DNA of 51,924 nt, counting the filler, from Jimgerdemannia flammicorona (taxonomy: Eukaryota), in assembly GCA_003990765.1 (NCBI GenBank). It is 2 parts of 2 records of this genome, joined end to end, with 100 filler letters (N's around TTAATTAATTAA, not from the genome) between each part and the next. Parts side by side here need not be neighbours in the genome. Positions count along the whole stretch, not along the records: positions 1 to 25,912 come from RBNJ01000776.1; 1 more part is not named here. One strand, given 5' to 3'. A program made the translations under genes and the position numbers. The notes under the pieces are model-generated. The model was not told the DNA's origin and made no database searches. It saw only the letters and a program-made list of their open reading frames with translations. Positions 1-26,199 of this stretch are shown here, one piece after another. The number at the start of each line of letters is the position of its first letter. The stretch's first letter is position 1.

Positions 1-198
1 GGCGGCGGCGCCCCCACCTATCACGGCAACTGGCGCTGGTGCCTACCATATTGAAATATTCTGAGCGGTTAGTTTACTTCGTCCGCGTGCGTACCTACCC
101 TGCTTCTTTCTACCTGCCCTGTGCAACGTAAGCCAGACTAACTCGACCTCCCCTGCAGCCGCGGAACTTATACCATCGTCGTGCAGCAACACTGGTGA
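1..198 (+). CDS. possible 3' end of an unidentified spliced gene (exons <1-67 and 159-198)
   Basis: GTTAGT donor at 68, CTAAC branch site and CAG acceptor at 156-158 join RRRPHLSRQLALVPTILKYSE to RRGTYTIVVQQHW-stop. No family recognised. Confidence 0.3.
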
Positions 199-1584: not shown

Positions 1585-3607
1585 TGTAAGAGAGTTACTT
1601 TGTTAGAGTACAGTTACATAGTTCTGGAAGGGTTTTCTGGATGTTCTGGAAGACTGTTTTCTTTAAGGTCAAGATCAATTTTATATGGAGTACATTCTTT
1701 ATGCTTATTGATTTCAAGATTAGATTGATATCTCAACCAAAGTTCCTTTTCAGACTTGTTCTAGATGTTTAGGATTTTCCATATTTTAGAAAGTTCAAGA
1801 AACTAAGACTAGCTTAATTGAATTGGTGTATTGCTACAGACAATACTCAATTAGGAAATTTTGAAATCTAGTTAGAAGTGGGACCTAATGGGTGTGCAGA
1901 TTTACTTAAGAGTAGTTTATAGTTATTAAATAGGTTTATTCACTATTTATAATATTACTATACTAGGAGTAGTATATAAAGAGATATTTATATAGAGAAG
2001 TATTCTTAACTTATTTATTTGTATTTTTGTTTGAATTTCTGAGGTCTGAGAGAGTAGATATTTATACTAATGAGAAACTATCTAGGCTATACTAATTATA
2101 AGTATAGTACTTAGTACTTTGATAAGTCAAAATGCAGTTATATAGTATAAGTATGAACTGATATGTCAAGAGATCATCTGACTGATGAGTTAGTATACAG
2201 TTATGTAGTATAAGATTAATTTAACTATACTAATAACTGCTAAGCTATCTATAGATTTAGACACTATCTGTATATTCTTCAATGAGATCATTATTGATAA
2301 TATTATCTCTGATGAAGTAGTTATCTAGAAAGAGTGGTTCTTGAATTATATCTCTCTATTTGTTCATATAGTAATAAGTTAGAACTATGTCACTATTCTA
2401 TAAGATAGTATCATCTGTCTCATATGTTGAATAGAGTATTAGTAGGTAGAGAAGAGATATATCATCTTTGTTTTTATCAGATTTGCTGTCAATATATCTT
2501 TAATAGATTATAATACTATATATTATAGGGTTATAGTATACTAATAGCTATGGTTCATTTTATTCATACTCAGAAGGTGGGGTTGTTGGTTTGATTTTAA
2601 GAGTTATCTGGAGATATAAGTTATATTCTCTAGTCTTTTTATTATAGTTAAAGTAATTAGATATAAATGTAAATTGATACTTATACCAGTGGCTATTATC
2701 TCAATAGGCCTTGTAGATAGCTATAAACTGTTGTAAGTTTATTAGCAAGATTGGTAGAGTGATTAGAGTTGGTAGAGATCCTTGGCTAGAGGTCATATTG
2801 ATATCAGAGAGATCATTATCTTCTGCTTCATTATTATTGAACTAGATTATATTATAGACATCCTTTATGGTATATCCAACTTAGAGTATTTATAAGATAT
2901 AGTTATTAGGATGTAGAAAGAGTCTATCTGTAGTCTGAGCATACTTAATATACTTGTGGTTAAGTTCTATACCATATCATCAATTTGGCTATAGAATAGA
3001 GTGTCAACTATTTTAGCAGTAGTAACTCAGAGATAGAGAATAAAGATACTATACTTGTAAAAGAGTTTTTGGTATTTGTAAGTTATAAGTTTATATTTTG
3101 ATAATATTTATATTGTGGTAGTGCTAACTATATCTTCTAAAAGACAACCAATCTGATAGTAGCTTAAGATTTATCTAATTCAATAGACTTTACTAAATAT
3201 GTTCAGGGCATTCTATCAGACTTTTATAAAATAAAGAGGTGCTAGACTATGGATATTCATGAGAGGTAGGAGAGCTGTAGCTTGATTGATAATGATATTC
3301 CAAATATCAGTATAAATATAGTTGTAGATTTCAGTAGTTATATTTAGATATATATTTGAGAGTTATAGTTATTTGTTTGGTTTGTTTATAGTTCTCTATT
3401 TTAATATATTTATATATTCAATATATACTTTCAGTCCTAATTGAAAAGGTTTCATTTTTATAAATCTTGTATTTTATAGCTTCAAGTTGACTTAGCTTTA
3501 TAATCTATAACTTCAGTTTAACTCAGTTTCATGATCTTATATGTAGTTTCTGAATTTGTTCTGAGGGTGATATATGATTTTGGTGGCTTAGAGGTTGTGT
3601 ACTTACA
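1585..3607 (-). repeat. LTR-like segment bounded by TGTAAG...CTTACA (putative long 3' LTR)
   Basis: Terminal inverted hexamers at 1585-1590 and 3602-3607, with the PPT immediately inside (3608-3619). Bases 1585-1734 recur inverted at 26041-26198. Confidence 0.5.
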
Positions 3608-3734
3608 ACTCTCCCCTTCTTAGCTTTTGATATTCTCATCAAATTTTTCTAATTTGATCTAGTATTATTACACTATTTGAATGATCAAAAGTTCAGTAAT
3701 GTTTATTTTTCTCTAAAAGTGATATACTCATAGT

Positions 3735-4125
3735 TAGTACTTCCAATGAATCGAATCAAATCAAATTTGGCCCAAACTCAATTCGATTCAATCGAATCAA
3801 AGGTCCAATTCAATTCAAATTTTGATTTGAACCTTAATTTTCAAAATATAATAACTTGACGAAAATTCATCCAAATTTAATATATTTTAGCTTGTTAGAT
3901 TCACCATATTAATATGATTCTAACAAGTTAAAGTACATTAGATTTGGATGAGTTTACACTGAGTTATTGCATTTTGAAAATTAGGGTTCAAATCAGACCC
4001 TCAATTTGATTCGACTTTTGATTCGATTCAAATTGATTCAAATTGAAAAATCCCCAATTTGATTCGACTTGTTTAACCCTCAATTTGATTCGATTCGAAT
4101 TGATTTGACTTGTTTGGGAGTACTA
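3735..4125. mobile_element. non-autonomous hAT-type MITE (391 bp)
   Basis: Termini TAGTACTTCC / GGGAGTACTA, perfect 8-bp target duplication CTCATAGT (3727-3734 and 4126-4133), subterminal ATCGA/ATTCG repeats and a long central palindrome. Confidence 0.85.
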
Positions 4126-4439
4126 CTCATAGTATAGTTATCTAATATATTAGATTTATATATTAAAGGGTCATATATTCAATGCTATATATTAGAAGTG
4201 ATTCTGATGTTATATATCTCATTTCCCACCAGTGATATAGAGAAAATAGGCTGTCTTTTAGTTTTGCTATTTTTCTAAAGAGTTAGTATTTCTTTTGTCT
4301 TAACTTATTGAGTTTTTGATTTTGTTCATGATAATTATAAGGGTACTTTTAACAATATTCAGAAGGGGTAATATATAGTACAGAACTAATAGGAGTATTC
4401 AAATTTAGTTGTTCATAGAATTATATTCTTAAACTAAGT

Positions 4440-4819
4440 CAGTGGTATTCTGGAGATTAGTTTTGGATTTCTATATTATATTATAGATCAGATATTCTTT
4501 CTATTTGACAAGGTATTCTGAATGGTTCTGATTGCCATATTTGTTGAGGATTTGTTCAACTTTGTATTCTTCTTAATTATTAATAATAACAGGTGCTAGT
4601 AGTTTTGTAGTTTGATTTGAAAAATAGTTTGTTGTCATTTTCATTATTTTGCTTGAGATATTAGACATTGAAGACAGAGTAAATCTTATAATATCTAGTA
4701 GTGCCAATTTGTAGAAAGTTGGAGAGACTTGTACAATAACTTCAAATAGTCTAATAAATTTACTATTCAGCTTTATAGAGGGTCTATGCTTGAGATTATT
4801 AACTTAGTATTCTCAGATA
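4440..4819 (-). pseudogene. retrotransposon integrase C-terminus plus chromodomain relic
   Basis: LKHRPSIKLNSKFIRLFEV...FYKLALL... followed by EEYKVEQILNKYGNQNHSEYLVK*KEY. Stops are consistent with G>A/C>T changes. Confidence 0.75.
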
Positions 4820-6376
4820 TAATGTGTTTCAAAACTGAACCAATGTTTTATTAAATTTTACATTTTAATTATTTTAAATATATATGCTATATATAAATAT
4901 ATATATAATTATACTATATTGTAGCCCTATATCAGGGGTATCCAGAATATTAAATTTATTTTATTTAAGATTAATATAACTATAAAAAGAAATTCCCAAA
5001 AAAAAATTATTAGTTCAGTTTTGTAACCATTATACATTTTAGTATTTAATGTATCCTCCTTTTGCTTTATATACTGCTTGGATATATCTCAGTATACTCT
5101 CAACTAATTTCTTATAAATATCATCTAGAATGGTATTCTATTTGTCCTCCACCCTATCCCAGAGCTCATATATACCCTTTGAATATTCTTTATATATGTT
5201 GAGTTATCTCTTAATATGTGCCCATAAATGCTCAATGAGATTGAGGTCAGGCAATTATATAAGCCAGTCTAAAAGATGAAGTATATATTTCTTGAACCAT
5301 TTCTTAGTAGTATGTGATGTATGCTTGGAGTTATTATTTTGTTGAAATATTTTCCTCTAACCAATCTTGAAGTATTTAATCAATTTTTTCAGTTTGTTAT
5401 CAAGGATTGATTTGTACAGCTTGGCATCTATTTTCCTGTTGATTTTGCATACATATCCCATATTATAGTAATTTATACATCTCTAAACTATAATTAATCT
5501 ATCTCTGAATTTCACTATTAGTGTCACATATTTCTCTTTGAGCAGGATCCCTGACATTTTCCACACCCATTCTTATCTGTCAGACCCAAAATAATTGATT
5601 TTGATCTTATCCAAGAAAATGACAAGTTTTCAGTCATCAATTATCTAGTCTCTGTACTTATATATGAAATCATAGTAAGTTTTATTATACCAGCATAATA
5701 ATCTTAGCTTTTTTTTGCTTGACTATGGCCTTCAAACCAGCCTCTTTTAGGATCCAACATATTATTTGAGTACTTATAGTCAGTCTACTATTGATTTTAA
5801 ATAGTTTTGAGGCCTTTGGTAGTATATCTACCTTACTGTCAGTTACTTGATAAATGAGTCATGACTTATCACAAGCAGAGAGTTTGCTCAGATGACCTTC
5901 TTTTGAGATGACATTATTGTCACAATAATTGTTTCTAATTTGGACAATAGAGGTTTGACTAATGCTAGTCTCTTTTGTAATTTTTCTTATTGTTATGCCA
6001 GAACTTAGCATATTAATAATAATATTGCACATATTCAAGGAGAGTTTCTTCATACTTATTTTAAAGGAAATAAATTTTACAGAGAGATAGAGATATGGTC
6101 AAAGAACAACTATGCAAAATTTCAGATATTTATGTCAACTATAGGTCGGTCTACTACCAAATATATGTCTTTTGATGATGATATTATAAAACTGAATCAA
6201 TAATTTTTTTTTTATGGTTAAATTAATATTAATTAAACTAAATTTAGTATCCTTGGATACCTCTGATATAGGGCTACAATATAGTATAATTATATATAAT
6301 TATATATAGTATATATATTTAAAATAATTAAAATATAAAATTTAATAAAACATTGGTTCAGTTTTGGAACACACTG
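4820..6376 (-). mobile_element. Tc1-family (DD34E) DNA transposon with long TIRs, inactivated
   Basis: About 200-bp TIRs (left TAATGTGTTTCAAAACTGAACCAATG..., right reverse complement CAGTGTGTTCCAAAACTGAACCAATG...). TA flanks at 4818-4819 and 6377-6378. Confidence 0.9.
5039..6053 (-). pseudogene. Tc1 transposase pseudogene
   Basis: N-terminal HTH (MKKLSLN...SGITIRKITKETSISQTSI). FQQNNNSKH (decayed QQDNDPKH) is followed 34 residues later by the E of LPDLNLIEHLW. C-terminal KAKGGYIKY*. Many stops. Confidence 0.88.
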
Positions 6377-6378
6377 TA

Positions 6379-6700
6379 GGGTTCTCTTGTTTTAACCATG
6401 GAGTCCCAAGGATGATCTCATTGTCAGGAAGTGATATGATTTGAAGTGTAACATATACTCAGTAGTTACCAATTCTGAAGAGTAGGTTGTAGACTTTCTT
6501 ACTAATAATATATAAGATTCTATCAGCTATAGTAACTACTTGAGTTTGTTGTACTGGAGAGTCAGAACCTTGAGTCTGTTGGCTGTTTCTTCATTGATGA
6601 AATTGTCTGAGACACTACTGTCTATTATAATCTTAACAGATATCCAATTAATAAATACTTAGAGAGTAAGCAGTTTGTCTAATCTAATGATAGTAATTTC
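6379..6700 (-). pseudogene. retropepsin-like protease relic of the chromovirus
   Basis: VFINWISVKIIIDSSVSDNFINEE ... LPDNEIILGTPWLKQENP. Confidence 0.75.
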
Positions 6701-7051
6701 TATTATAGGAGATTTTCTTTTATTGGTTCTCCTTTGGGCCAGTTCATTGACACAAGAGAAGCAATCATCAATTATTCAAGAAGAGTACATTCTAATACCA
6801 TGGTAGCATTGGTCACTTAGTACAAATCCATCTTTGATTTTCTTGTAGAATTGTTCTTGCAATATCTTGACATAGTATATATCCTTATATGTACTAAAGA
6901 AGTGTTTCTTAGCCACTAAGTGGAACTCATAACCTTTGTTGTAACTATGAAGTGGATACTGGAGAAAGATCAAGCAGCTGTTTATTGATCGATCCAAATT
7001 GCGCATTTTTACACGTCAATAAAATGATGACGTATTCTAAGAATCACGTTT

Positions 7052-7506
7052 CTAAGCCACATTATCGAGATAGGAATTTAGTACGGTTTTGAGATTAAGT
7101 TCGGTCAAGGTCGTATTCATCTTCAGAGACTTAGCAAGGGCGCATGCTCCTTTGTCGCCAATATTATTCCCTTTACACTTAAGTACTGATCGTGAGATTC
7201 ATTCCATCACGCAGTTCTGACATACATTCGAGATTCAGCTCGGTCAAGGTCGTGTTCTGATTGAGACACTCGGCTAGGGCACTGGCCCCCTCGTCGCCAA
7301 TGTCATTATCTTTAAATTGAGCGAACACGCACAGATCGTGAGCCTAATTGCATCACGCAGCTGCACAAAACGCTCCACCCAGTTCTAAAATACCCGAGAG
7401 ATTAAGAGCGGAAAGGATTGTTTTCTGTTTCAGAGAGTCAGATATGGCTCTGGTCCCCTCGCCGCCAATGCTGTTACCTTTAAAATAAAAAAAATAAAAA
7501 TAAAAA

Positions 7507-7552
<46 letters not shown>

Positions 7553-10500
7553 AACGAGCGAAAACGTGCGCCATTCCACAAAGCAACTACATATTGCTTT
7601 ACACAGTTCCTATATACATGAGATTCAACTGGTCAAGGTCTTATTCAACTTCAGAGACTCGGCTAGGGCACCTGCCCCCTCGGCGCCAATGGTATTATCT
7701 TTAAAATGAACAAGGGAGGAGCAAATATGCACAGATTGTAAGCTTCATTTCATCACGCAGGCACACACAATACTTCACATAGTTCTGACGTACGGCAAAG
7801 ATTCAACTTGGTCAAGGTCGTGTTCTGCTTCAGAGTCTCGGCTAAGGGCCGAGCTCCTTCCGTACCAATGCTATTACCTTTTAAAAAAATAGGAAATGAG
7901 TGAACATGCAGATCATACACTTCATCCCATCGCGTTCAGTTCCATCAAGCTTCAGAGACACGGCTAGGGCACGGCCCCCTCGTCGCCAATGCTATTATCT
8001 TTAAAATGCATAGAGAATGAGCGAACACACACAGATCATGACCTCTATTCTATCATGCAGCTGCAAACGATGATTGACACAGTGCTGACATACTTTCGAG
8101 ATTCAGATGGGTCAAGGTTGCGTTCTGCTTCAGAGACTCGGCTAGGGCGCAGACGCCCTCGTCGCCAATGTTATTATCTTTAAAATAAAGAGGGGACGAG
8201 CGAACAGATACAGTTCGTGACCTTCGTTCCGTCATGCTGCTGCACAAAATGCTTCACATATTTTTGAGACTCAGCTGGGTCAAGATTGCGTTCTGCTTCA
8301 GAGACTCGGCTAGGGCACGGGATCCTTCGTTATCACTGCTATTATCTTTAAAACAAACAGAGCGTGAGCGAACACGCACAGATCATAAGCTTCAACTCAT
8401 TATGCAGCTGCACACAATGCTTCTCAAAGTTCTGACATACTGTAGATATTTAGCTCGGTCAAGGTCGTGCTCCGCTTCAGAGACCCGGCTAGGGCACGGG
8501 CCCCCTCGTCGCCAATGTTATTATCTTAAAATGAAGAGGGATAAACGAACATGCAAAGATCATGAAATCCGCTCTACTCACACAGTGCTGACATACTTTC
8601 GAGATTCAGCTGGGTCAAGGCTTTGTTATTCTTCAGAGACTCGGCTAGGGTGCCAGCTCCTTCGTCGCCAATGTTATTATCTTTAAAATGAACAGGAGAT
8701 GAGTGAACTCTCCCAGATCGTGACCTACATTCCATTATGCAGCTGCACACAACGCCTTGCAAAATTCTGACATACATTTGATATTCAGCTCCTTCAAGGC
8801 CATGTTCTGCTTCAGAGATTCGGCTAGTGCGCAGGCTCCCTCACTGCCAATGTTATAACCTTATAAGTAACAGAAGGTGAGCGGAAACGCACAGATTATG
8901 AATTCCATTCCATCACGCAGCTGCACACAATGGTCCACTATTCTGATATACCGTTGAGGTTCAGCTTCGTCAAGGCCGTGTTCTGCTTCAGTGACATAAT
9001 CAAGGCGCGGGCTCCCTCGTCGCCAATGTTGATATCTTTAAAATGAACAGGAGATGAGTGAACACGCACCGATTGCGAGCTTCATTCCATCACACATCTG
9101 CACAGAATGTTTCACATACCTTCGAGATTTAGCTCGATCAAGGTCGTGTTCCACTTCAGAGAGTCGGCCAGGGCTTCAGCCCCCTCGGCGCCAATAACAT
9201 TCCCTTTAAAACGAGCGAACACGCATCGATCGTGAGCTTCCGTTCATCACACAGCTACACAAAAATGCGCCATACAGTTCTGACATACTTCTAAGGTTCA
9301 GCTCGGTCAAGGTCGTATTCTGTTTCATAGGGCGCGAGCACCCTCATCGCCAATGTTATTATCTTTAAAATTAACAGGGGATAAGCAAACTCACATAGGC
9401 CGTGAGCTTCATTCCATCATACAGCTGCACACAATGCTTCGCATAGTTCTGACACATACATTCGAGATTCAGCTCTGTCTAGGTCGTGTTCTGGCACAGA
9501 GATTGAACTAGAGCTCGGGCCCCCTCGTCGCCAAAACATTATCTACAGAATTAACAGGGATTAGCAATCTCACGCAGGCCGTGAGTATCCTTCCATCATG
9601 TAGCTGCACATAATAATTCCGGCATACCTTCGATATTGAGCTTAGCCAAGGCTGTATTCTGCTTCAGGAACGCGATTAGGATGCGTGCCACCTCGTAACC
9701 AATCTTATTTGCTTTGAAATGAACAGAGGATGAATGAGTATGCACAGATTGTGAGCTTCATTCCACTAAACAACAGTGACATACCTTCGAGATTCAGCTT
9801 AGTCAAGGTAGTGTTCTGCTTCAGCGTCTCGGCCGGGGCTTCGGCCCCCTTGACGCCAATGTCATTACCTTTAAATTAAGCGAACATGAGTTTCATTCCA
9901 TCACGCAGTTGCGCACAAAGTTTCACACAGCTTTGACATACATTTGAGATTCAGCTCGCTCAAATTAACGTTCTGCTTCGGAAACTCATCTTGAATGAAG
10001 GCCCCCTTGTCGCAAATGTTATTATCTTCATAATGAATAGGAGATGAGCGAACATGCACTATCGTGAGCTTCATTCCATAATGCACTCGCAAGCAACTCC
10101 TCACACAGTTCTGATATACCTTGGAGATTCAGCTTGGCCAAGGCCCATTGTAACCGATCTTATTAGCTTTAAAATGAACTGGGAATGAGTGAACATGCAA
10201 GGTAGTGTAACCCTCCCCATCACAAAGCTGCACATAATGCTTCATGCAATTCTGACATACTTACAAGATCCAACTCTACCAAGATCGGGTTCTGCTTCAG
10301 AGAGTCGGCCAGGGCTTTGGCTCCCTCGGTGCCAATGACATTCCCTATAAAATGAGGAAATAAGCACATGCTGTGAGCATTATTCCATCACGCAGTCGCA
10401 CACTATATTTTATACCGTGTTAACATTCAGTTTGATCAAGGTCGTGTTCTGCTTCAGGGACTCGGCTAAGTCGCCGGCCCCCTCGTCGCCAATGTCATTA

Positions 10501-11558
10501 TCTTTGAAATGAACAGGGCATGAACGAACACGTATATATCGCGAGCTTCATTCCATAACAGCTGATGCACACAATACTTTACACACTTCTGACATACATT
10601 CGAGATTCAGCTCCATCAAGGTGGTGTTCTGCTTCAGAAACTCGGCTAGGGCGTGGTCCTCTTCGTCACCAATGCCATTATCTTCATAATAAAGAGGAGA
10701 CGAACAAATACTTACAGATTACGAGGCTCATTCCAAAACTCAGCTGCACGCAATGCTTCGCACAGTTGGACATACCTGCGATATTCAGGTTGGTCAAGGC
10801 TGTATTCTGCTTCAGAGAATCGACTAAGGCGAGTCCCCCCTCGTGGCCGATATTATTCGCTTTGAAATTATCAAGGGAAGATCGAACAAGCACAGATCGT
10901 GAGCTTCATTCCAACATGCAGCTGCACAAAATGCTTTATTCAATTCTGATATACCTGCAAGGTTCATCTCGGTCAAGGTCCTGTTCTGCTTCAGAGACTT
11001 AGCTAGGGCTTGGGCCCCCTCGACGCCAATACTGTTGTCTGAAGATGAACAAGGAATGTGGAAACACGTGCAGATTGTGAGCTCCGTTCCATCGTGCAAC
11101 TAAAAACAGTGGTTTTCACAGTTCTGACATACCTTGGGGATTCAGTGCAGTCAAAGTTATGTTCTGCTTCAGGAACTCCGATATGGCACGGGCCAACAGA
11201 AGGCCGATACCGTTTTCTGGATGTGATTAGAGGATGTGAGTGCACCTAGATTATAATCTTGCTTCTACCCCAGCTACAAAGAATATTTCTCAAAATTCTG
11301 ATGCACCCCTGAGGGTCGAGCTTGGTCACGTTTGTGTCCTTTTTCAGAAATTCGATGAGAGGGCGCTTTGCACTGTCGCCTATGTACTTCCCTGAAGATG
11401 AATAGAGATGAGCAGCCATGCACAGGATGTTGATTTGTTTGCTGAAAAAGATTTTCACATTTTTTCAGATATACCGGAGAGATTTAACTCATGCGAGGTC
11501 GTTTTCTGCTTTAATATCTCGGGTAGGATGCTGGCCTTCTCATCGCCGATTCTGCGTT
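7052..11558 (-). repeat. tandem array of ~27 exon+intron units (~160-180 bp), each exon encoding one 28-aa LRR
   Basis: Intact 84-nt AG/GT-bounded exons at 11475-11558, 11133-11216, 10955-11038, 10776-10859, 10598-10681, 10261-10344, 9942-10025, 9785-9868, 9628-9711, 9120-9203, 8952-9035, 8776-8859, 8597-8680, 8441-8524, 8094-8177, 7794-7877, 7394-7477 and 7226-7309; terminal exon 7052-7170. Consensus xNxIGDEGAxALAESLKQNTTLTxLNLx. The introns are mutually homologous (GTATGTCAGAA...TGTGCAGCTG...ATGGAATGAAGCTCACGATCTGTG...TTCATTTTAAAG). Confidence 0.95.
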
Positions 11559-13140
11559 CTTTAGATGAATGGAAATTTAGCGAACACATTTAGAATATGA
11601 ACTTTATATAACAGTAGAAAACTATGGTTCACATGACTGACATACAGGTAGCTTTCCAATCGGTGGCAATGCTTTCCTCTAAACATAAATAACGAATATT
11701 ACAAGATAGCTGTTAGCCAAGTGTGATATTTCAAAATTATGACGATCCTCTGTTCTCCACTCGCCAATGTTACCTTCTATGCTACCGTAGCCTGAACAAT
11801 GCAACATAAGGCCGGAACATAAACGCCTGTCAGTTAGCAAATATGAACATCCTATGTAGGGATAATTGTACAATCTGTGAAGCTACCTACTTAGATTTGG
11901 TTGCAGCACGAGAGGGACAAGCGTCGATTGCGAGTGCTCTTTGGTGATGTGTTTAAGTTGTAAATGTGTGTGTAAAATTTACTTTTAGAATGGCTCGCTC
12001 CATCCTCGAATTCGAAGCTGTTGCTGTTTGCAGATTCCAGATATTGCTGATGGGTGACCCGTCTTACCTCGATGAATGACTGCATCTCAGGCGAAAATGG
12101 CATTGGTCTAAATGCAAGACCTTCTAAATTTGATTCTCTATCATTGGTTGCAAAACAAAAGGAATGCCGACTAAACCAGCTGCACATTCTAACAACTGAT
12201 GGTGTACTTCAAGTGCACTAGGCCGCTGGTTGGGGTCGACGCGCCAGCAGCTCCGGATGATATCGTTGAATGTTGTTGGTGCACCAGGGATCAACTCCTC
12301 TCGAAGGCCATCTGGATTTCTGGCGACGGCTACGGATGCATCGGTTTGTGGTGGCACGCTGACGATCAGCTGCCATAACAGGATTCCCAAGCAGTAGACG
12401 TCTGATTTCTGTGTATATTGTTCTCCTTTAAAGATCTCCGGAGGGAAGTATGCCATCCGACCGTAGACACCTTCCTCGGAATTTCCATCTTCTACAGCTT
12501 GACTAAGTCTGACAGCGCGGTGTGAGACTTGTGGAATACTACGTTTCCAGCGTGGAGATCCTTATGGCTGAAACCCATATTGTGGAGACTCGCCAAGCGG
12601 CTGGCAAGTTTAATGGCATACGCGAAGGTTGTATACCAATCGCCATCTTGTTCGCACGGCTGGTTCTCAAGGGTACCGATATCCGCAAATTGCATAATCA
12701 TCATATACTCTCAGTTTCAGAATGTCGTGACAAAGCGAAAATATTCATTGTAGGGGCATTGTCGGTATTATTTCTGCAGCGACGCAAATGGACATTGAGG
12801 ACTAACTGTATTGGTGAGATAAAACATAGCAAGGTTACTGGTAATTGGTATTGGAAAATATTGCATATATCACACGAACCGAAACTCACTTCTTCAACCA
12901 TTGACAATTTCAATTCTTTGGCGGCCACCTGATGCCATGCTGATTTCAGAGTAACATTGGCATGGTAAACCTTGGCAAACCCCCCTTCGGCAAATGTTGA
13001 AAAATCGTCAAGTTCACTGGGCGGAATCCAGGTAAGGTATGGCTTCAGTTGCGGCACGGCCAAAGTATCGAGGTAGGTCCTGTAGGCGGGTTTGGGCGAA
13101 CATGGCTTTGTAATAGTTATTCAGCGCTTCAGCGGTATCA
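7052..13140 (-). pseudogene. tyrosine-kinase-like protein kinase fused to a C-terminal RI/NLRC3-type LRR array; frameshifted (probable pseudogene)
   Basis: Kinase motifs AEGGFAKVY, VAAKEL, HKDLHAGN, YFPPE, SDVYCLG and CWRVDPNQRP at ~12190-13060 (intron 12806-12889), followed by ~27 LRR exons down to the TAG at 7052-7054. Frameshifts near 13081, 12710, 12512 and 12160. The 5' start is not resolved. Confidence 0.85.
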
Positions 13141-13629
13141 GGGCTGAGTCATATCACACATCACATGGCCATAGGTCAAATTGACCGCTTTGGTAACATC
13201 AGTTTCAATCAGTTGCCCTACGCCAGAGTCAACTTAGTTCAGGATTCAGATTTTCGACAGTTTCAGTATTAATAGTTAGTGCCGTTTCATCATCAACTTG
13301 GCAATTAGTAGCATACTACGTCTGTTGAATAGTCTGTTATATATCCTTCCCTTCTCTCTCCCCTTTACCCTCCCTCCCTTCCCTCTCTCCCCTTACCCAC
13401 TCTGTACCCCCTCTTCTTTCTCTCTCCTGATTCTCATTATACCATTCAATCAAGCTCACCGGGCTGCATAATGCTCTAATGCTGTCCTGTACTCTTCTCT
13501 TTTGCACTACACACCTATTCGTATGGTGAATCATCCCTAGTTATTCCGTCCGTATCAGTTACACCGTCCAAACCAGCTATACTGTCCACACCTCAACGAC
13601 TCCAAGACCCCTCCAAAGACGTACTGGTC

Positions 13630-14560
13630 GAGAAACCTTCCCCCGGAGATTGCAGAGCTCATACTCGGCTCCGTCAAGATCGATAATGATTGTGACCGCA
13701 ATATGCGTAACTTGGCTCCTTCGTGGCGCAAACCCGCCACACGCTTGCTCTTTAAGCACAATTTACGATGAACTGACCAACTACCTCCGCAAGATTCAAC
13801 GTCCGGAATACGCCCGCTACGCCAGCACCCCCCAAACCATTTGTCTTTCTCGTCTTTTAGGACCCGAAATCACAGAAAAGGCCCTCGTCGAGTCCGGCCT
13901 GAATATTGTCTCTTTCAAGATATTCAAGTGCCCTCCGACCTGGGTCGCTGAGCTATCCTCTTGACCATGTGCACTCACTAGCCACGCCTAGCCGAACTCT
14001 CCCTCCACTGCTGCAATCACTTCTACAGCAGAAAATTCATAACTGCCATCAAGCGTTGGCCGGGCTTGACCCACTTAGACCTTACCGACGTCGGGGCAAT
14101 CAATACCACGAAATTATCAGGCTTCTCCCGAACCTTCGGAGCCTTCGCCTGTCCTGCCAAGTCAATGAGAAATCGGACCGCAACTCCATGTTCCGCGACC
14201 GCATGTCCAACGGTCTCCTGCGTGTGATGATTAACACGAGCCAGTTTTCAAGGTCATTGAGCTCAACAACTGCACGCGCCTCTCCAACTTGCCCATCCTC
14301 AACTGTTTCAATAGTTTCGTCAACACCCTCGAGTGCCTCGTAACAAGTAAATCTCAGGCATCACCCTCGCCGAGGTCATCGCCGTTTGTGACTCCTTCGC
14401 TTCGTCGACGCTTCTCATTCCAGCTTCAACAACAAGGACCTTCGTCACCTCTCCGGCACTTCCTCGGACGGTAGCCCCGAGGTCGCCCCGTGTATTGGCC
14501 AGCAGACACCAGTTCGCGTCTCTTCGTATCGGTGGAAAATAAGAAATGAAGCACAATATC
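13630..14560 (+). pseudogene. F-box (probably F-box/LRR) protein relic with frameshifts
   Basis: RNLPPEIAELILGSV ... WRKPATRLLFKH (F-box-like), then IIRLLPNLRSLRLSC in another frame. No continuous ORF. Confidence 0.5.
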
Positions 14561-15514
14561 AGCAAGGGAATGAAATGTGGTTTACCAAAACGAATCAGCT
14601 ATGAAATTGCCTACACACGCATAGCAGTTTAAGTCTCAGTCATATGGTTATTCTCGCCCACGCCACTTCATACAATGATCTACGGCAATGACGAAACCCC
14701 CCCCACCAACATTATCTCCGCTGAGGTGAACACAACATTCCAGTCTCCACACAGGTTGGATCAGTCGCAGGTACCCGTGAGTCCACGGGCAACTCGTTCA
14801 TAAACACCCTTATGTCATTCCAAAAAATCAGGGAGCCAAGTCCATGGGCAATACACGATTCGAACTTCATGCAAAAGGACTTTTTTTTAAAAAAATAATA
14901 ATAATAACAATAATAACAATAATAATTATTATTATTAATGGATATGTATATATATAATTTTGCGTGTATAATTGCTGATCAGCGATTTTGGGTATGGTGG
15001 ATCTGAAGAAATATAATTTCTGTCAATGCCAAATGACCAACTCGCGTGCTCAAAACACGAACTCTTCGCACCATATGGGACCTTACACTCTTCATTATTA
15101 CTCATTACATCTACGGACACAACCCCAATTAATCCCATACATGTGTTTGTGTATCCAAAGGAAAATCCAGCACATCTATCAAAAAAAACACTACTACATC
15201 ACCCCAGATAGCGTCCCAGATAACAACCTACCAGGACTAGCAACCCAGACTGCAAAATAAATTTAATGATCCAAGATGTCATATACCCGACCCGACCGCA
15301 TGGCAATGTAATAGTATAAATGAAGATCGACAATGACAAAACTAGATGCGTGAATACATTTCATTCAAGTTCACCATTATCTAGCATATGGTGAGGTTCA
15401 ATCTGCTTGCGCATCGATGGTAAATGTTCCCATTAAACTACACATTTCATTGGTCAACTGCTCCGTTTGGCTCTTTTGTTATTAAAGTGTGTCTTGTTTG
15501 CTATTACTTCAATA

Positions 15515-15554
<40 letters not shown>

Positions 15555-15853
15555 GCATCAATCTTGGTGTTGGTGGAGAACCTTTATTAAGATCATTGAC
15601 CTTTGATGAAGATATTATGCATTCTTCTTAATTAAGAGAAGTTGGTTCTTTGATAGTGAAGTTGAAAACTTCTGTCAATCATAGTATAAAGAGGCTCTAG
15701 ACTATAAAAGTGTGTGTGCTTAAAATTCTTAACCAACTTATATATATAAACCTACACACATCTATGTCACTAGCCCAACTCTCATAGAGATACTAATGGC
15801 TATGCCAATTTAATTATAACAGAGTAACAAGCAGTAATAATAGCAGGATCTCA

Positions 15854-16185
15854 CCAGCCTACATATATCTCACTAGTCTACATCTAACTCACTAATCTCT
15901 ATATATCATTAGTCTATATATCTCACATACCTATATGTCCATATGTACCTTGCCAACCCACCTATATCTCATCAACCCCCACACATCTCATCAGCCCATA
16001 CACATCTTACCATCCTATATATATCTCACCCACCTGTATATATCTCACTATCCTATATACATCTCATCCACCTATATACATCTCACTACCCTACATGCAT
16101 CTTGCCCACCTATATATATCTCACTATCTGGTATAAATTCCACTAGCCCAGCCCCTGTGCATCTCACACACCTGTATATCTGCTT
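15854..16185. repeat. degenerate ~19-bp minisatellite (CACCTATATACATCTCA-like)
   Basis: Repeated CACC/CCTATATA(C/T)ATCTCAC units are visible by eye. Confidence 0.7.
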
Positions 16186-17919
16186 ACACACTCACACACC
16201 CAGTAAGATATATATGGACTGATGAGATTCATTCAAGTACATGTGAACTTGAATGTGCTACTGTGATGGTGCAGAGATCTATAACAAAAAAGAGAGAGTA
16301 GTTAGCATAGTAAGAGTTGGAAAATTCACCTACTGGTAATTCTTTTCATAATTATATTATACTATCATCCAAATATACCCAGAGAAGACTCATAGTGGAG
16401 GATTATTCCAAATTCATAGGGTCTATTTATAGAAGAAGAAAATATACATACTTAGTGACAATATGTAAAAGACTGTTGTCAACCAACTTGTTGAGTGTGA
16501 TATTTGAAAGTGTTAGAGGTAAATAATCATATTTTAGTCTATCAATTACAGGGATACTATAAGATCTGAATCATGGGGCAGTCTATGAATTATCAAGCAG
16601 TCTATCTATGAATTGCCAAGCAGTATATCTGTGAATCACTGGGCAGTCTGTAAAAGGGAAATGAGTAACCTCTCTGGTCGAAAAACTGATTTCACAAAGT
16701 CAACTTAGATAGCTTTTGACTACATGAAGCCAAAATTTGACCAGATGGGGTTCTGACAAATGATGGCTTAAAATATTATATTCAGATTCAGATTGAAGGA
16801 ATATATTATGTGCAAGATATTATCAAATACTCCAACTAGGCTCTGGCTTAGTAAATCATATCACACTCAAAATAACACTAATATATACTACTCTCAATCA
16901 ATGAGTGCTCTCTCTCTGCCATCATCAGTAAGATAAATAATAGTGTATCTCATATGATTATATAGATAGGATAAAAAAAGAATACATAAGTTCATTATAT
17001 TCTCATCAATCTGTCAGTTGGTCATGATGAACCTCTGTTAACTTACTTTGATACAGCCCAACACTTTACAGTTATATTGTCAAGGAAGGCCAATCTGTTC
17101 TTTATTTAAAAAATGGTTCTGGCCATCTTCTCAATCTTTTCACTATTTCAAATATTGAAAAAAAATATTACATACTTCTCAAGTGTTTTATCTCCACTTT
17201 TCATATAAAAAAAAAAAAAAAAAAAAAAAACTGATATCATCACATATATTTATTATATAATTAGATTTATTTATAGCTATTTAGTTTGCAACTAATAGTA
17301 GATGAGGTATATATAAAGAGTGGGATTTTGTGTGATGATTCCAGCACTAAATGCATAACTATAAAAGATCTTGAATTTCATCAAGTGGCAACAACTCATC
17401 TCTTTGAGTCTTGATATCAAAGTCAGGGTTGAGGGTAGTGAAGTCATTAGAAGAAATGTTGACCTTCTACAGAGTAATATCAATATAGTCAAAACACAGG
17501 ATCAGTTTTGTCTTGATCACTCGGCAGGTTGTAGTAGAGTTTGTAACAGTAACTGGTAAGCCTTGGCTGAGGTACAGAGAACTAGAATTTGTATATCAAG
17601 GTGAGGGGACTATATAGACATATCAATCAGTCACTGCACATCAGACTCTATCATATTGTCAGAATCAGAATAGTTATACTGGAATTATAAAATACATACA
17701 ATAAAGATAGGCTAAATATAGTAGAGGTCTGTAAGATATTAATCATAACTATAAATCTAACTTTTTCAGTTCCAAATTTCTTAATCACAGTCTGTTATCT
17801 GAAGAACCATTAGAAAAACCATATTCAATCCAATCTATCTACAGGGCCTACTAGTCTGACTCAAACTCTTCAAACTCCTGCACAGAGCCCACCAAACTGA
17901 AATCTTGGCTTGGAAGAAT

Positions 17920-18135
17920 TACTATTTATATTACAACCAAAAACTCTATACCTACTTTGACACTTTGGCCATACCACAGCTGGAGCCAAATTCTACCTAA
18001 AGAATTCAGTCAAACTCATGGTAAATTGAAACAACTTACCAAAGGTGGGTTTGCCAAAGTTTACCAGGCAAAAGTTATTGTGAAGTCAGTATATTATGAG
18101 GTGGCAGCCAAAGAATTGAAATTGTTAATAATTAG
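17920..18135 (+). pseudogene. decayed N-terminal fragment of a paralogue of the 12-13 kb kinase
   Basis: TYFDTLAIPQLEP and KGGFAKVYQAKVIVKSVYYEVAAKELKLLI align with TYLDTLAVPQLKP and EGGFAKVYHANVTLKSAWHQVAAKELKLSM. The Trp codon TGG has become TAA. Confidence 0.85.
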
Positions 18136-19305
18136 ATATTAAAATTAATATTTTTACTATTATTCTAATTATAACTATCATTAGTTTCTTCAATATAGCT
18201 GATATTATTCTAAAATTTTGTTTCTTTTATTTTTACAACTCTTTTAACCTAGTTACTATATTATTAAACAAATCTCTATAGTAATATTCTCTCAGCTAAT
18301 ATGTAGTTTTACTTCTATATTATTATTATTATTATTATTATTTTACTATTTAGAATAATAATGAAATTGATATTTATTTATTATTATTTATTATATTTCT
18401 AAATACATTGGCCTTCTCTCTATCTAGATATCTACTTATATACTGAAGCTTTATTTTATTTTATTTTTTATATCTTTAACCATAATAAAGACAATAATTT
18501 CTAAACTACTTCTGCTTCTGGTCAGCTCTAATACTAGTATGTAAATTTTATTTTAGATTGCAATACTTATTTTGAAAAGAAATATATTACTAAATGTTCT
18601 CAATTCAATGTCAGTAACAGCAATGTTGGTAATTGCATACAAGAGCTCTTGGAAGATAAGGGAGCTCCAGCATACAACCAGCAGAAATCTGAATGCAATT
18701 AAATCCAGTGGCAGTCCAATCCAATCTGGTGCAGTCTATTGCTTGAGGTAAAGGCGGGAGAATGGCAGAGGAAGTCGATATTGTGCTCTTCAGGCCTTCA
18801 AGCGACCGCCTTATACTATGGCTATCTGAATTGGTTGGTGGGTGACGAGGTGCGCGGCGGTTCGCGGGCTTTGGCGGGGTGGCGAGCAGATGTCGGGCAT
18901 GATGTAGGTGGTGTCGATTGGAAGGGGTTAAGTTATGCTAGTTTTAAGGGGCGGACGGAATGGGTACTCCTGAATTTTTATAAGTTATAAGCGGATAACC
19001 ATATAGGGGTCGTTCCTTGATGACGAGTAGTTGCCGAGCGCGGGCGAATAGACTAAGAGTACGTTGGCTAGACTATAGTGTTCGGATTGGCTCAGCGGGT
19101 GTTACGGTGATAGAATAAAGGATAGGTAATACGGTTCGGGCTGCGTAATAAAGATGTGCATCCAAGGCGGGTAATAAAGGGTTATAAATTGGTGACATCT
19201 CTGAGGAGTGATGTCGCAATATAAAAAACAAAGGAATTCTTTCTGCAGCCGAAACCGCACCTTAACCATCTTACAGACCCATTTATTTCACTCGCTTTTG
19301 TAAAC

Positions 19306-25912: not shown

Positions 25913-26012
25913 NNNNNNNNNNNNNNNNNNNNNNNNNNNNNNNNNNNNNNNNNNNNTTAATTAATTAANNNNNNNNNNNNNNNNNNNNNNNNNNNNNNNN
26001 NNNNNNNNNNNN
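25913..26012. other. artificial assembly gap / contig linker (N44-TTAATTAATTAA-N44)
   Basis: Exactly 100 bp with a six-frame stop spacer in the middle. Adjacency across it is not guaranteed. Confidence 0.97.
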
Positions 26013-26040
<28 letters not shown>

Positions 26041-26043
<3 letters not shown>

Positions 26044-26198: not shown

Positions 26199-26199
26199 T

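What the first reader, a model, noticed from the sequence alone, without database searches (positions are those of the whole stretch)
7052..13140. Kinase fused to ~27 interchangeable one-LRR-per-exon cassettes: candidate diversifying non-self receptor system in a fungus
Seen: downstream of a TKL-type kinase (HKDLHAGN loop), each 28-aa ribonuclease-inhibitor/NLRC3-type LRR sits in its own 84-nt exon with phase-1 boundaries at both ends. The ~70-100-nt introns are homologous to each other, so exon+intron is the duplicating unit. Any cassette can be skipped, duplicated, deleted or swapped without breaking frame. Established: described fungal NLR sensors use WD40/TPR/ankyrin repeats rather than LRRs, whereas repeat-per-exon LRR architecture is known from vertebrate NOD/NLR genes and from exon-shuffling ROCO LRR genes of the brown alga Ectocarpus. 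Inference: this is an intracellular kinase-LRR sensor family whose binding surface is varied by unequal recombination, gene conversion and/or combinatorial splicing.
Basis: partly seen in the sequence, partly recalled or inferred. Interest (0 to 1): 0.9.

Follow-up and report, generated by a model that had tools for sequence, protein, structure and literature searches.

The report
Decaying fungal kinase gene with exon-modular LRRs
A fungal gene joins a protein kinase to 27 leucine-rich repeats that each sit in their own exon, a layout known from algal and vertebrate immune receptors, but this particular copy is a transcribed, broken pseudogene.

Summary
On the minus strand (about 13079 to 7052) a TK/TKL-like kinase is followed by 27 RNI-type (Pfam LRR_6) cassettes. 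Each is one 28-residue repeat in an 84-nt exon with phase-1 borders. The introns are 55-140 nt and homologous to each other. Contigs of two public runs join exons at the predicted borders, so the locus is transcribed and spliced.

This copy is not a working receptor. Measured against four relatives, the kinase/linker exon has four frame breaks. One removes the L-I-D of the IDVG (DFG-equivalent) motif and one brings an in-frame stop. Eight of the 27 cassettes are damaged.

The family is real. The named relative is Endogone sp. FLAS-F59071 protein P0005 (kinase + LRR_6, 769 aa). A soil-metagenome relative (L005) has the same one-LRR-per-exon layout. Hundreds of paralogous contigs lie on the cassettes.

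Recent cassette exchange and diversifying selection are not supported. Cassettes are about 68% identical (best 86%), show no neighbour effect, and have pN/pS of 0.58. Exon skipping could not be tested.

Verdict: a transcribed pseudogene of a new fungal variant of exon-modular LRR genes.

The parts
12890..13079 (-). Kinase N-lobe exon (AEGGFAKVY glycine loop, VAAKEL lysine). The upstream exon(s) and the start codon were not located.
   Evidence: Aligns to P0005 residues 48-105. AG at 13081-13080 read. X1 record 7 stops fitting at 13077 and carries 153 other letters upstream. The 3' end is inferred from the GTGAGT donor at 12889.
12806..12889 (-). Intron inside the kinase domain (84 nt if the GTGAGT donor is used).
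   Evidence: Gap in the alignment to P0005. X1 record 5 begins to fit exactly at 12805 with 31 other letters before it. The same intron position is seen in L001 and L003.
11891..12805 (-). Large exon: kinase core (HKDLHAGN), C-lobe and a family-specific linker. It is broken by four frame disruptions: at about 12710 (1 nt missing), 12513 (L-I-D of IDVG lost plus a shift), about 12120 (shift with an in-frame stop) and about 11970 (2 extra nt in an ACAC run).
   Evidence: tblastn against P0005, P0001, P0002 and P0003 changes frame at these four places. Pfam PF07714 and PF00069 hit the C-lobe ORF. X1 record 5 covers 12519-12805 with 0 gaps, so the 12710 break is not an assembly error. X1 and X3 lack the 2 nt at 11965, and removing them restores the frame.
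11559..11890 (-). Introns plus about 51 nt of small exon(s) that could not be placed with certainty.
   Evidence: X1 record 2 has 135 letters between 11890 and 11390, which equals the 84-nt cassette 11558-11475 plus 51 nt. My 18+33-nt model would give a TAA at the next junction, so it is left open.
11475..11558 (-). LRR cassette 1, intact (84 nt, AG..GTATAT), divergent.
11307..11391 (-). LRR cassette 2, damaged: 85 nt with a weak GTGCAT donor. The following intron is retained in contigs.
   Evidence: X1 and X3 lack 1 nt at 11313, which gives 84 nt. X2 record 10 matches the window's 85-nt form and reads through 11390-11133.
11133..11216 (-). LRR cassette 3, intact.
   Evidence: It is spliced to 11038 in X2 record 10.
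10955..11038 (-). LRR cassette 4, intact.
   Evidence: The exact joint 11133|11038 is seen with 0 differences.
10776..10859 (-). LRR cassette 5, intact.
10598..10681 (-). LRR cassette 6, intact.
10425..10501 (-). LRR cassette 7, damaged: the 3' end and donor are lost. It is 77 nt, or 86 nt to the next GTATAA.
10261..10344 (-). LRR cassette 8, intact.
10120..10166 (-). LRR cassette 9, damaged: 37-nt internal deletion (47 nt) with a stop.
9942..10025 (-). LRR cassette 10, intact but divergent.
9785..9868 (-). LRR cassette 11, intact.
9628..9711 (-). LRR cassette 12, intact (donor GTATGC).
9460..9542 (-). LRR cassette 13, damaged: 83 nt with stops. It is still present in a contig.
   Evidence: X2 record 9 fits 9426-9542 with 0 differences.
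9289..9362 (-). LRR cassette 14, damaged: 10-nt deletion (74 nt) with stops.
9120..9203 (-). LRR cassette 15, intact. Other sequence joins it at both borders in a contig.
   Evidence: X2 record 8 fits 9120-9202 with 0 differences inside a 151-nt contig.
8952..9035 (-). LRR cassette 16, intact.
8776..8859 (-). LRR cassette 17, intact.
8597..8680 (-). LRR cassette 18, intact.
8441..8524 (-). LRR cassette 19, intact.
   Evidence: LRR_6 at 24.1 bits.
8262..8345 (-). LRR cassette 20, damaged: open 84 nt, but the donor is ATATGT and the IG core is lost.
8094..8177 (-). LRR cassette 21, intact.
7934..7998 (-). LRR cassette 22, damaged: truncated (65 nt), frameshift, no donor.
7794..7877 (-). LRR cassette 23, intact.
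   Evidence: Loose ends at 7799 run on into another cassette's start in 4 (X1) and 11 (X2) contigs.
7618..7698 (-). LRR cassette 24, damaged: indels (81 nt) with a stop. The following intron holds a 69-nt mononucleotide run (7482-7550).
7394..7477 (-). LRR cassette 25, intact (donor GTATTT).
7226..7309 (-). LRR cassette 26, intact. It is closest to the array consensus.
   Evidence: LRR_6 at 27.2 bits.
7052..7170 (-). Terminal exon: LRR cassette 27, an 11-residue tail and the stop codon at 7054-7052.

Best explanation
The locus is a transcribed, decaying copy (pseudogene) of a cytosolic kinase-LRR gene family of an Endogonales-like (Mucoromycota) fungus. In intact members, an N-terminal TK/TKL-like kinase is joined by a ~150-residue linker to a C-terminal ribonuclease-inhibitor-type LRR solenoid.

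The LRR domain is built from symmetric phase 1-1 exons of 84 nt, one repeat each. The array grew by tandem duplication of exon+intron units: 27 here against about 12 repeats in the Endogone protein P0005.

Shown: the cassettes diverged under protein-level constraint, and this copy was then disabled. It lost the DFG-equivalent Asp, has three further frame breaks in the kinase/linker exon, and has eight damaged cassettes. It is still transcribed and spliced.

Inferred: in intact members the LRR solenoid binds a protein partner or ligand and controls the kinase. The modular exon layout lets repeat number change without loss of frame, so the family evolves by birth and death. Whether the ligands are non-self molecules is not known.
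For: Architecture.

Fungal, Endogonales-like origin:
- The best named relatives are Endogone sp. FLAS-F59071 proteins. P0005 (769 aa) carries PF07714, PF00069 and LRR_6 (PF13516). It is 57-74% identical to the window over the kinase HSPs and has the same domain order.
- Introns are short, with GTATGT donors.

Pseudogene:
- The frame changes at 12710, 12513, about 12120 (with a stop) and about 11970 against all four relatives tested.
- All 8 relatives in alignment A1 keep L-I-D-V-G where the window has only V-R.
- X1 record 5 spans the 12710 break with 0 gaps. X2 record 10 confirms the 85-nt form of cassette 2.
- 8 of 27 cassettes are damaged by deletions of 37, 10 and 1 nt, a truncation, or donor loss.

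Past coding constraint:
- Acceptor AG is kept in 27 of 27 cassettes and donor GT in 23 of 26.
- Framework residues N1, I3, G4, L15, K16, N18, L21, L24 and N25 are kept in 17-19 of the 20 open cassettes.
- pS is 0.47 against pN 0.27. Codon-position diversity is 0.32/0.28/0.39.

Transcription and splicing: joints or fit borders fall at 11133|11038, 12805, 13077 and 9203/9120. There are 135 letters for the 500 nt between 11890 and 11390.

Family:
- L005 has a related kinase followed by LRR exons of 84, 90 and 84 nt with AG..GT borders.
- L001 and L003 have unbroken kinase ORFs with the same kinase intron.
- 700 (X1) and 882 (X2) contigs lie on the stretch. Of these, 374 and 538 are only 90-95% alike and so come from other loci.
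- LRR_6 arrays are also fused to a MYND domain in Jimgerdemannia flammicorona (P0083).

Cytosolic.
Against: - X1 and X2 are 'RNA?' only by the tool's guess. That they are RNA is my inference from the exact exon-exon joints. Some contigs contain intron sequence.
- Two of the lesions (11965 and 11313) are absent from the X1/X3 contigs. A less damaged allele or near-identical copy therefore exists, and part of the damage could be strain-specific.
- No listed contig bridges the 12513 and 12120 breaks, so assembly error there is not excluded (the 12120 break lies in a T run).
- Only one annotated full-length kinase-LRR protein was found. Only 1 of the 40 kinase relatives scanned carries LRR_6, and that one looks unrelated because it also has SidE_PDE. 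Metagenome gene calls stop at introns, so this count is a poor measure.
- No whole genome was available, so family size and the domains fused to other arrays are not measured.
- The function of intact members is untested.
Confidence: 0.7

Rival explanations
1. The locus is a working member of a diversifying non-self receptor system. The lesions are assembly errors or are bypassed by skipping damaged cassettes, and the binding surface is varied by unequal recombination, gene conversion or combinatorial splicing.
For: - The locus is transcribed and spliced.
- 19 of 27 cassettes are intact, and all borders are phase 1, so skipping keeps the frame.
- Two lesions are absent from the X1/X3 contigs.
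- Inactivated LRR exons inside working genes are described for Ectocarpus ROCO genes (passages).
- Many joints between non-adjacent cassettes appear in contigs.
- The high share of broken relatives (3 of 5 soil loci) fits birth-and-death evolution of receptor families.
Against: - Skipping cassettes cannot mend the kinase/linker exon. The 12710 break is confirmed by an independent contig, the L-I-D of IDVG is missing, and there is an in-frame stop.
- Four damaged cassettes keep both splice sites, and one of them (9542-9460) is present in a contig.
- Cassette identity is 0.68 on average and at most 0.86, with no neighbour effect.
- pN/pS is 0.58 and variable sites are not confined to the concave face.
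- Joints between distant cassettes were laid at 90% likeness with sides of about 30 letters, so they fit paralogous mRNAs equally well.
Confidence: 0.12
2. The array is non-coding satellite-like DNA. An exon+intron unit of a dead gene was amplified as a tandem repeat after the gene had died.
For: - The repeat is tandem with a period of about 170-180 nt.
- Introns are nearly as conserved as exons (0.63 against 0.68).
- The similarity pattern is star-like, with cassette 26 nearest to most others.
- The gene is broken.
- The array has 27 units against about 12 in P0005.
Against: - AG is kept in 27 of 27 cassettes and GT in 23 of 26, despite about 35% divergence.
- Framework residues are kept, and pN is lower than pS.
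- The third codon position is the most variable.
- 20 of 27 cassettes are still open and exactly 84 nt.

Neutral decay at this divergence would have destroyed most of these features.
Confidence: 0.08
3. The family is an ordinary regulatory kinase with an LRR scaffold, in the manner of other RNI-like cytosolic proteins. It has no role in recognising non-self, and the exon layout is only a by-product of how the repeats duplicated.
For: - RNI-type LRRs occur in many housekeeping proteins. The nearest solved chains include ribonuclease inhibitor, LRRC34, dynein regulatory complex subunit 5 and RanGAP, as well as NOD2 and NLRPs.
- There is no signal of diversifying selection.
- Kinase plus LRR_6 proteins also occur in a diatom and other protists (P0040, P0109, P0115).
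Against: - Hundreds of paralogous cassette contigs lie on the stretch.
- Several relatives are pseudogenes.
- Repeat number differs greatly between members (27 against about 12).

These features are more typical of fast-turnover families than of a housekeeping gene.
Confidence: 0.35

Closest known systems
Endogone sp. FLAS-F59071 hypothetical protein BC937DRAFT_86469 (P0005)
   Same: It has the same domain order: N-terminal region, TK/TKL-like kinase with an HxDLHxGN loop and IDVG, a family-specific linker (FSPEMQ.FI..RR), and 28-residue LRR_6 repeats. It is 57-74% identical to the window over the kinase HSPs.
   Different: It is an intact predicted protein with about 12 repeats, against 27 cassettes here. 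It is annotated only as hypothetical. Its exon structure could not be seen with these tools.
Ectocarpus ROCO LRR genes (Zambounis et al. 2012, PMC3341825; brown-algal ROCO genes, PMC11378527)
   Same: Each LRR sits in its own exon whose length is a multiple of three. Inactivated LRR exons lie inside the arrays. Pseudogenes occur in the family. These genes have been proposed as candidate immune receptors (passages, listing and abstract start for PMC11378527).
   Different: Their exons are 72 nt and encode 24-residue plant-type LRRs placed N-terminal to Roc-COR. Here the exons are 84 nt and encode 28-residue RNI-type LRRs placed C-terminal to a kinase, and there is no Roc or COR. Ectocarpus has LRR exons on the opposite strand inside introns, and none is seen here. 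The Ectocarpus paper states that its LRR-kinase genes do not show exon shuffling.
Vertebrate NLR LRR exons (NLRP3; Hoss et al. 2019, PMC6642158)
   Same: The LRRs are RNI-type and are encoded by strictly modular exons, with the exon border at the same place in each repeat. This modularity permits exon skipping (passages). NOD2 and NLRP chains are among the nearest solved LRRs.
   Different: Their exons are 171 bp and encode two repeats (28+29 residues). Here each 84-nt exon encodes one repeat. Vertebrate NLRs have a NACHT domain. Here there is none, and a kinase takes the N-terminal place.
Fungal NLRs with highly conserved WD40/ANK/TPR repeats (Dyrka et al. 2014, PMC4986451)
   Same: Both are cytosolic fungal proteins in which a signalling domain is joined to a C-terminal superstructure-forming repeat array of variable length. 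Both families are multi-copy.
   Different: There is no NOD domain here. The repeats are LRRs, which that survey did not find in fungal NLRs. Repeats here are only about 68% identical and are not highly conserved internally. Each repeat here is separated from the next by an intron.
Kinase and LRR genes of Glomeromycotina and Mortierellaceae, reported as transferred to Mollicutes-related endobacteria (PMC10507103)
   Same: That paper shows that kinase genes and LRR-domain genes are already on record in Mucoromycota fungi (passages).
   Different: The paper concerns horizontal transfer. The passages I read give no exon structure and no kinase-LRR_6 fusion of this type. Its supplementary files were not opened.

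Membership tests
RNI-type leucine-rich repeat (Pfam LRR_6, PF13516) | A 28-29-residue repeat of the form LxxLxLxxNxIGDxGAxxLAxxLxxN that matches the Pfam model. | tested here: met
   Six single exons were scanned and all hit LRR_6 (E 3.3e-6 to 0.012). Two of the six exceed the 23.4-bit gathering score. P0005 scores 112.8 bits. The nearest solved chains are ribonuclease-inhibitor-like proteins.
Protein kinase, TK/TKL-like (Pfam PF07714) | The kinase fold matches the Pfam model. | tested here: met
   The C-lobe ORF scores 51.3 bits on PF07714 (cut-off 23.1) and 44.5 bits on PF00069. Assignment to the TKL group proper was not tested by phylogeny. The nearest solved kinase is ABL1.
Protein kinase, TK/TKL-like (Pfam PF07714) | An intact catalytic core: beta-3 Lys, HxD...N loop, DFG-type Asp, and one open frame. 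| tested here: not met
   VAAK and HKDLHAGN are present. The L-I-D of IDVG is deleted, and the exon has four frame breaks and a stop. The relatives P0001-P0008 keep all these motifs.
NOD-like receptor / STAND | A central NACHT or NB-ARC nucleotide-binding domain. | tested here: not met
   Pfam found no NACHT or NB-ARC in the window's ORFs or in P0005. The region between kinase and LRR is a ~150-residue linker with no Pfam hit.
ROCO (LRR-Roc-COR-kinase) | A Roc GTPase with a COR domain. | tested here: not met
   P0005 has no Roc or COR hit. The domain order is kinase then LRR.
Exon-modular LRR arrays (Ectocarpus type I LRR exons, vertebrate NLR exons) | Repeat-sized exons of identical length with the same phase at both ends. 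| tested here: met
   20 of 27 cassettes are exactly 84 nt and open. All have phase-1 borders. The same layout is seen in L005.
Exon-modular LRR arrays (Ectocarpus type I LRR exons, vertebrate NLR exons) | Alternative use (skipping) or recent shuffling of cassettes. | tested here: inconclusive
   Joints between non-adjacent cassettes exist in contigs but cannot be told apart from paralogous mRNAs. There are no cassettes on the opposite strand. There is no neighbour effect, and the best pair is 0.86 identical.
Fungal repeat arrays with high internal conservation | Repeats nearly identical to one another (recalled criterion: about 85% or more) with hypervariable sites under positive selection. 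| tested here: not met
   Mean exon identity is 0.68 and the maximum is 0.86. Overall pN/pS is 0.58.
Plant-type LRR receptor kinase | A signal peptide, an extracellular LRR, a transmembrane helix, then a cytosolic kinase. | tested here: not met
   The order is reversed (kinase first). In P0005 the highest 19-residue Kyte-Doolittle mean is 1.36, with no hydrophobic N-terminus. This is a crude hydropathy test only.

The most novel reading that the evidence does not exclude
Endogonales fungi may carry a large, expressed repertoire of cytosolic LRR receptor kinases that turns over quickly. Their ligand-binding solenoids would be assembled from interchangeable one-repeat exons. This would be a third, independent invention of exon-modular LRR immune-type receptors, after brown-algal ROCO genes and vertebrate NLRs, and the first LRR-based non-self sensor system in the fungal kingdom. 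It might be aimed at endobacteria, mycoviruses or foreign hyphae. The window's locus would be one of its many dead members.
Probability: 0.2. Interest if true: 0.85.

Novelty: new variant of a known kind. Interest (0 to 1): 0.5.

Why it matters
Surveys of fungal innate-immunity-like receptors report no LRR sensors (Dyrka 2014, passages). Fungi are therefore thought to rely on WD40, ankyrin and TPR arrays.

This locus and its relatives show that an early-diverging fungal lineage does have RNI/NLRC3-type LRR arrays fused to a signalling kinase. The exon layout is the one that allows repeat number to change freely in brown algae and vertebrates. My searches found no paper describing this for Endogonales or other Mucoromycota.

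If intact members prove polymorphic and ligand-binding, the origin and convergence of LRR-based recognition in fungi becomes directly testable. As it stands, the specific locus is a dead copy. Its value is as a pointer to the family.

Tried and rejected
- Whole genome of the window: none is held. There was therefore no census of paralogous arrays.
- Earlier findings of this scan: nothing by place, sequence or words.
- Sequencing runs: no RNA holder is listed as RNA on record. X1 and X2 are 'RNA?' by the tool's guess.
- Exon skipping: 15 joints were listed and 129 more were not shown. Many link non-adjacent cassettes (for example 7169 to 7799 and 7168 to 9789). They were laid at 90% likeness with short sides, so I could not assign them to this locus. 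No listed contig bridges 12513 or about 12120.
- Metagenome scan with the kinase alignment: 17 loci. Only L001-L005 are close relatives, and all are 1.8 kb or shorter. Only L005 reaches the first LRR exons, and no long array was recovered.
- Profile search of 1.84 billion representatives: 337 proteins at E<=1e-30. P0005's LRR columns entered the profile, so kinase and LRR hits are mixed and the number is not a family size.
- Pfam on 40 of the 150 listed proteins, chosen as longer than 400 aa with the best stretch in the kinase part. One of the 40 has LRR_6. The rest have multiple kinase domains, Sel1, Ras/Roc, MLKL_N, TLDc or MORN.
- Higher-order (two-unit) repeat suggested by the 335-nt period from Tandem Repeats Finder: rejected. 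Its matches (75%) are no better than those of the one-unit period, and nearest-neighbour pairs do not follow it.
- Conserved RNA structure in the introns: 0 predicted pairs in 16 introns.
- The idea that the intron is a degenerate second (B-type) repeat of a 57-residue RNI unit: considered from the ~178-nt period, but not tested beyond inspection and not adopted.
- A model of two mini-exons (18+33 nt) between the linker and cassette 1: it sums to the 51 nt required but gives a stop at the next junction, so it is left open.
- Flanking ORFs at 1-7050 and 13150-19500: no Pfam hits.
- Structure prediction and complex prediction were not run. They would not have changed the verdict.

Full report
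**1. What is in the sequence**

The feature lies on the minus strand. Three-frame translation of 13300-7000 shows a kinase (AEGGFAKVY, VAAKEL, HKDLHAGN). Behind it comes a long series of ...NNIGDEGA.ALAESLKQNTTLTELNLE... units in changing frames.

A search for AG-(about 84 nt)-GT with an open LRR-like frame found 11 clean 84-nt exons at once. An HMM built from them gave 38 rows in the 51.9-kb window. Of these, 28 rows (E from 0.068 to 1.5e-34) cover 27 consecutive units on the minus strand between 11570 and 7089. The remaining 10 rows have E of 1.1 or more. The array is therefore unique in the window and far beyond chance.

Aligning the 27 units shows that exon and intron are both alignable.

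**2. Cassette anatomy**

Each exon is [2 nt][27 codons][1 nt], so the introns are phase 1 on both sides.

Nineteen of the 27 cassettes are intact. Eighteen are 84 nt, open, and have AG and GT, mostly GTATGT. The nineteenth is the terminal exon, which runs from 7170 to the stop at 7054-7052.

Eight cassettes are damaged:

| Cassette (coordinates) | Damage |
|---|---|
| 11391-11307 | 85 nt, weak GTGCAT donor |
| 10501-10425 | 3' end and donor lost |
| 10166-10120 | 37-nt deletion |
| 9542-9460 | 83 nt, stops |
| 9362-9289 | 10-nt deletion |
| 8345-8262 | donor ATATGT |
| 7998-7934 | truncated |
| 7698-7618 | indels and a stop |

Single exons hit Pfam LRR_6. Two of the six tested exceed the gathering score. 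The Pfam motif straddles the exon junction: profile positions 13-24 match exon residues 1-12. Among the 20 open 84-nt cassettes, 392 of 400 ordered pairings give no stop at the split codon.

**3. Introns**

The introns are 55-140 nt, mostly 83-97 nt. I trained an HMM on the interiors of 12 introns, with 8 nt trimmed at the 5' end and 14 nt at the 3' end. It recovered 12 of the 14 untrained introns (E 2.8e-7 to 7e-18) and nothing else in the window at E<=0.01. The two misses are the first two, divergent introns.

No conserved RNA structure was predicted: 0 pairs in 16 introns. Shared descent of exon+intron units is the simplest account.

**4. Age and mode of the duplications**

- Mean pairwise identity is 0.68 for exons and 0.63 for introns.
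- The best pair is 0.82 overall and 0.86 in the exon.
- Identity does not fall with distance in the array (0.67-0.68 at lags 1-7).
- Most units are closest to cassette 26, which gives a star-like pattern.
- Among the 20 open cassettes, pS is 0.47 and pN is 0.27.
- Diversity by codon position is 0.32, 0.28 and 0.39.
- Framework residues N1, I3, G4, L15, K16, N18, L21, L24 and N25 are kept in 17-19 of 20 cassettes.
- The most variable sites are 9, 27, 5, 2, 19, 22 and 23. They lie on both the strand/loop side and the helix side.

The array therefore evolved as coding sequence for most of its history. I see neither recent homogenisation nor an excess of replacement changes.

**5. The kinase and linker are broken**

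tblastn was run with the Endogone protein P0005 and with three metagenomic relatives (P0001, P0002, P0003). It changes frame at the same four places in the large exon 12805-11891:

| Place | Lesion |
|---|---|
| about 12710 | one nt missing in ...ETE-EYMMIMQ |
| 12513 | the L-I-D of the IDVG (DFG-equivalent) motif is gone, and the frame shifts |
| about 12120 | shift with an in-frame stop |
| about 11970 | two extra nt in an ACAC run |

All eight relatives in alignment A1 keep L-I-D-V-G-L-S.

Independent contigs bear on three lesions:
- X1 record 5 spans 12519-12805 with no gap, so the 12710 break is real.
- X2 record 10 matches the 85-nt form of cassette 2.
- X1 and X3 lack the 2 nt at 11965 and the 1 nt at 11313. 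Leaving these out restores the frame and an 84-nt exon.

A less damaged allele or close copy therefore exists, and decay is ongoing. No listed contig bridges 12513 or about 12120.

**6. Transcription and splicing**

Two runs of one coded organism (X1, X2; 'RNA?' by the tool's guess) and one soil metagenome (X3) hold parts of the stretch. Laid at 90% likeness, they show:
- X2 record 10 joins 11133 directly to 11038 with no differences. This is exactly the predicted intron.
- X2 record 8 fits 9120-9202 inside a 151-nt contig that has other sequence on both sides.
- X1 record 5 starts to fit at 12805, the predicted acceptor.
- X1 record 7 stops fitting at 13077, two nt from an AG.
- X1 record 2 has 135 letters where the genome has 500 nt between 11890 and 11390.

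I infer that these are cDNA-derived contigs and that the locus, or a 98-100% identical copy, is transcribed and spliced as modelled.

The intron after cassette 2 is retained. The damaged cassette 9542-9460 is present in a contig. Both fit a transcribed pseudogene.

**7. The family**

*Named and metagenomic relatives.* The kinase C-lobe found 10 proteins. The only named ones are from Endogone sp. FLAS-F59071. P0005 (769 aa) has kinase plus LRR_6 in the same order. A near-length search with P0005 residues 1-430 gave 5 proteins, and only P0005 carries LRRs.

*Soil-metagenome loci.* L001 and L003 have unbroken kinase ORFs with the same kinase intron. L002, L004 and L005 carry stops or frameshifts. 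L005 continues into LRR exons of 84, 90 and 84 nt with AG..GT borders. The one-repeat-per-exon layout is thus shared by an independent relative.

*Paralogous contigs.* In X1 and X2, 700 and 882 contigs lie on the stretch. Of these, 374 and 538 are only 90-95% alike. The window's own cassettes are at most 86% identical to each other, so those contigs must come from other loci. Loose ends at cassette borders run on into the start of another cassette.

*Wider distribution.* RNI-type arrays are widespread in eukaryotes. They are fused to NACHT, F-box and kinase domains elsewhere, and to a MYND domain in Jimgerdemannia flammicorona.

*Localisation.* P0005 has no segment of transmembrane strength, so the proteins are probably cytosolic.

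**8. How it most likely works**

Shown:
- the architecture;
- past coding constraint;
- present disablement;
- transcription.

Inferred:
- In intact members the RNI-type solenoid binds a partner and gates the N-terminal kinase.
- Symmetric phase-1 exons with homologous introns allow unequal crossing-over to add or drop repeats in frame (27 here, about 12 in P0005).
- The family turns over by birth and death.

Whether the ligands are non-self is unknown. I give that about one chance in five.

**9. Comparison with what is known**

| Known system | Source seen | How this locus compares |
|---|---|---|
| Ectocarpus ROCO genes | PMC3341825, passages, | Closest analogue in layout: 72-nt exons, one 24-residue LRR each, inactivated exons inside arrays. 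|
| Vertebrate NLR genes | PMC6642158, passages, | Also close in layout: 171-bp exons encoding two repeats, with exon skipping in NLRP3. |
| NLRs | | Not a member: no NOD domain. |
| ROCO | | Not a member: no Roc or COR. |
| Plant-type LRR receptor kinases | | Not a member: reversed domain order and no transmembrane segment. |
| Highly conserved repeat arrays of fungal NLRs | | Not a member: repeats are too diverged. |

Dyrka 2014 found no LRR in fungal NLRs (PMC4986451, passages). Kinase and LRR genes of Mucoromycota are mentioned in a paper on transfer to endobacteria (PMC10507103, passages).

Six searches found no description of this architecture in fungi:
- Endogonales with leucine-rich repeat and kinase;
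- fungal NLR, LRR and early-diverging fungi;
- Jimgerdemannia with LRR;
- Glomeromycotina with tyrosine kinase-like and leucine-rich repeat;
- Mucoromycota with NOD-like receptor and LRR;
- Jimgerdemannia with Endogone and kinase.

Subscription journals are mostly outside that library, and no supplementary files were opened.

**10. Verdict**

The locus is a transcribed pseudogene of a real kinase-RNI-LRR family that has not been described in the papers I could search. It is a new fungal variant of exon-modular LRR genes. Interest is moderate (0.5). The pointer to the family is valuable, but this copy is dead and the diversification claim is untested.

Noticed in passing
window 17884-18121 (+): A short fragment resembles the N-terminal region and glycine-loop part of the same kinase family (P0005 residues 21-102). 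It lies in two frames on the opposite strand, about 5 kb upstream of the gene. It is probably a relic of a second copy in head-to-head orientation. The covering ORF 17855-18142 has no Pfam hit.
   Followed up: partly
window 28976-33765 (-): A degenerate LTR-retrotransposon-like element has integrase (rve), an RT/RNase H-like ORF, and a dUTPase domain in the protease/gag region. It is split over several frames. The dUTPase is an unusual passenger for a fungal element.
   Followed up: partly
window 19513-20799 (+): An unbroken 428-residue ORF has BTB/POZ and SPRY domains. It shows that long frames do survive in this assembly near the broken kinase gene.
   Followed up: partly
window 13530-14343 (+): Two overlapping ORFs in different frames read like one gene with a frameshift. 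The text has LRR-like ...LTHLDLTD... and ...LPNLRSLRLS... stretches. There are no Pfam hits. It may be another decayed gene next to the kinase-LRR locus.
   Followed up: no
window 7482-7550: A 69-nt mononucleotide run (A on the plus strand) sits inside the intron after cassette 24. Contigs appear cut there.
   Followed up: no
window 25913-25956 and 25969-26012: Two runs of 44 N each are assembly gaps, next to a 28-nt A run.
   Followed up: no
window 48857-50812 (+): A 651-residue open frame is rich in S, P, Q, G and A, with 18-nt tandem repeats at 49397-49443 and 49793-49847. It has no Pfam hit.
   Followed up: no
window 40963-41421 (+): An ORF has a DUF3336 domain (Pfam PF11815). From recall, this domain accompanies patatin-like lipases.
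   Followed up: no
L005 1-800; L002; L004: Three of the five close soil-metagenome relatives of the kinase also carry stops or frameshifts. L005 additionally lacks about 35 residues of the linker. This suggests a high pseudogene share in the family, although low-coverage contig errors are not excluded.
   Followed up: partly
window 2001-6400 and 26001-28000: AT-rich blocks (GC 0.23-0.28) flank gene-bearing stretches of GC 0.41-0.49. The kinase-LRR gene ends at the edge of one such block.
   Followed up: no
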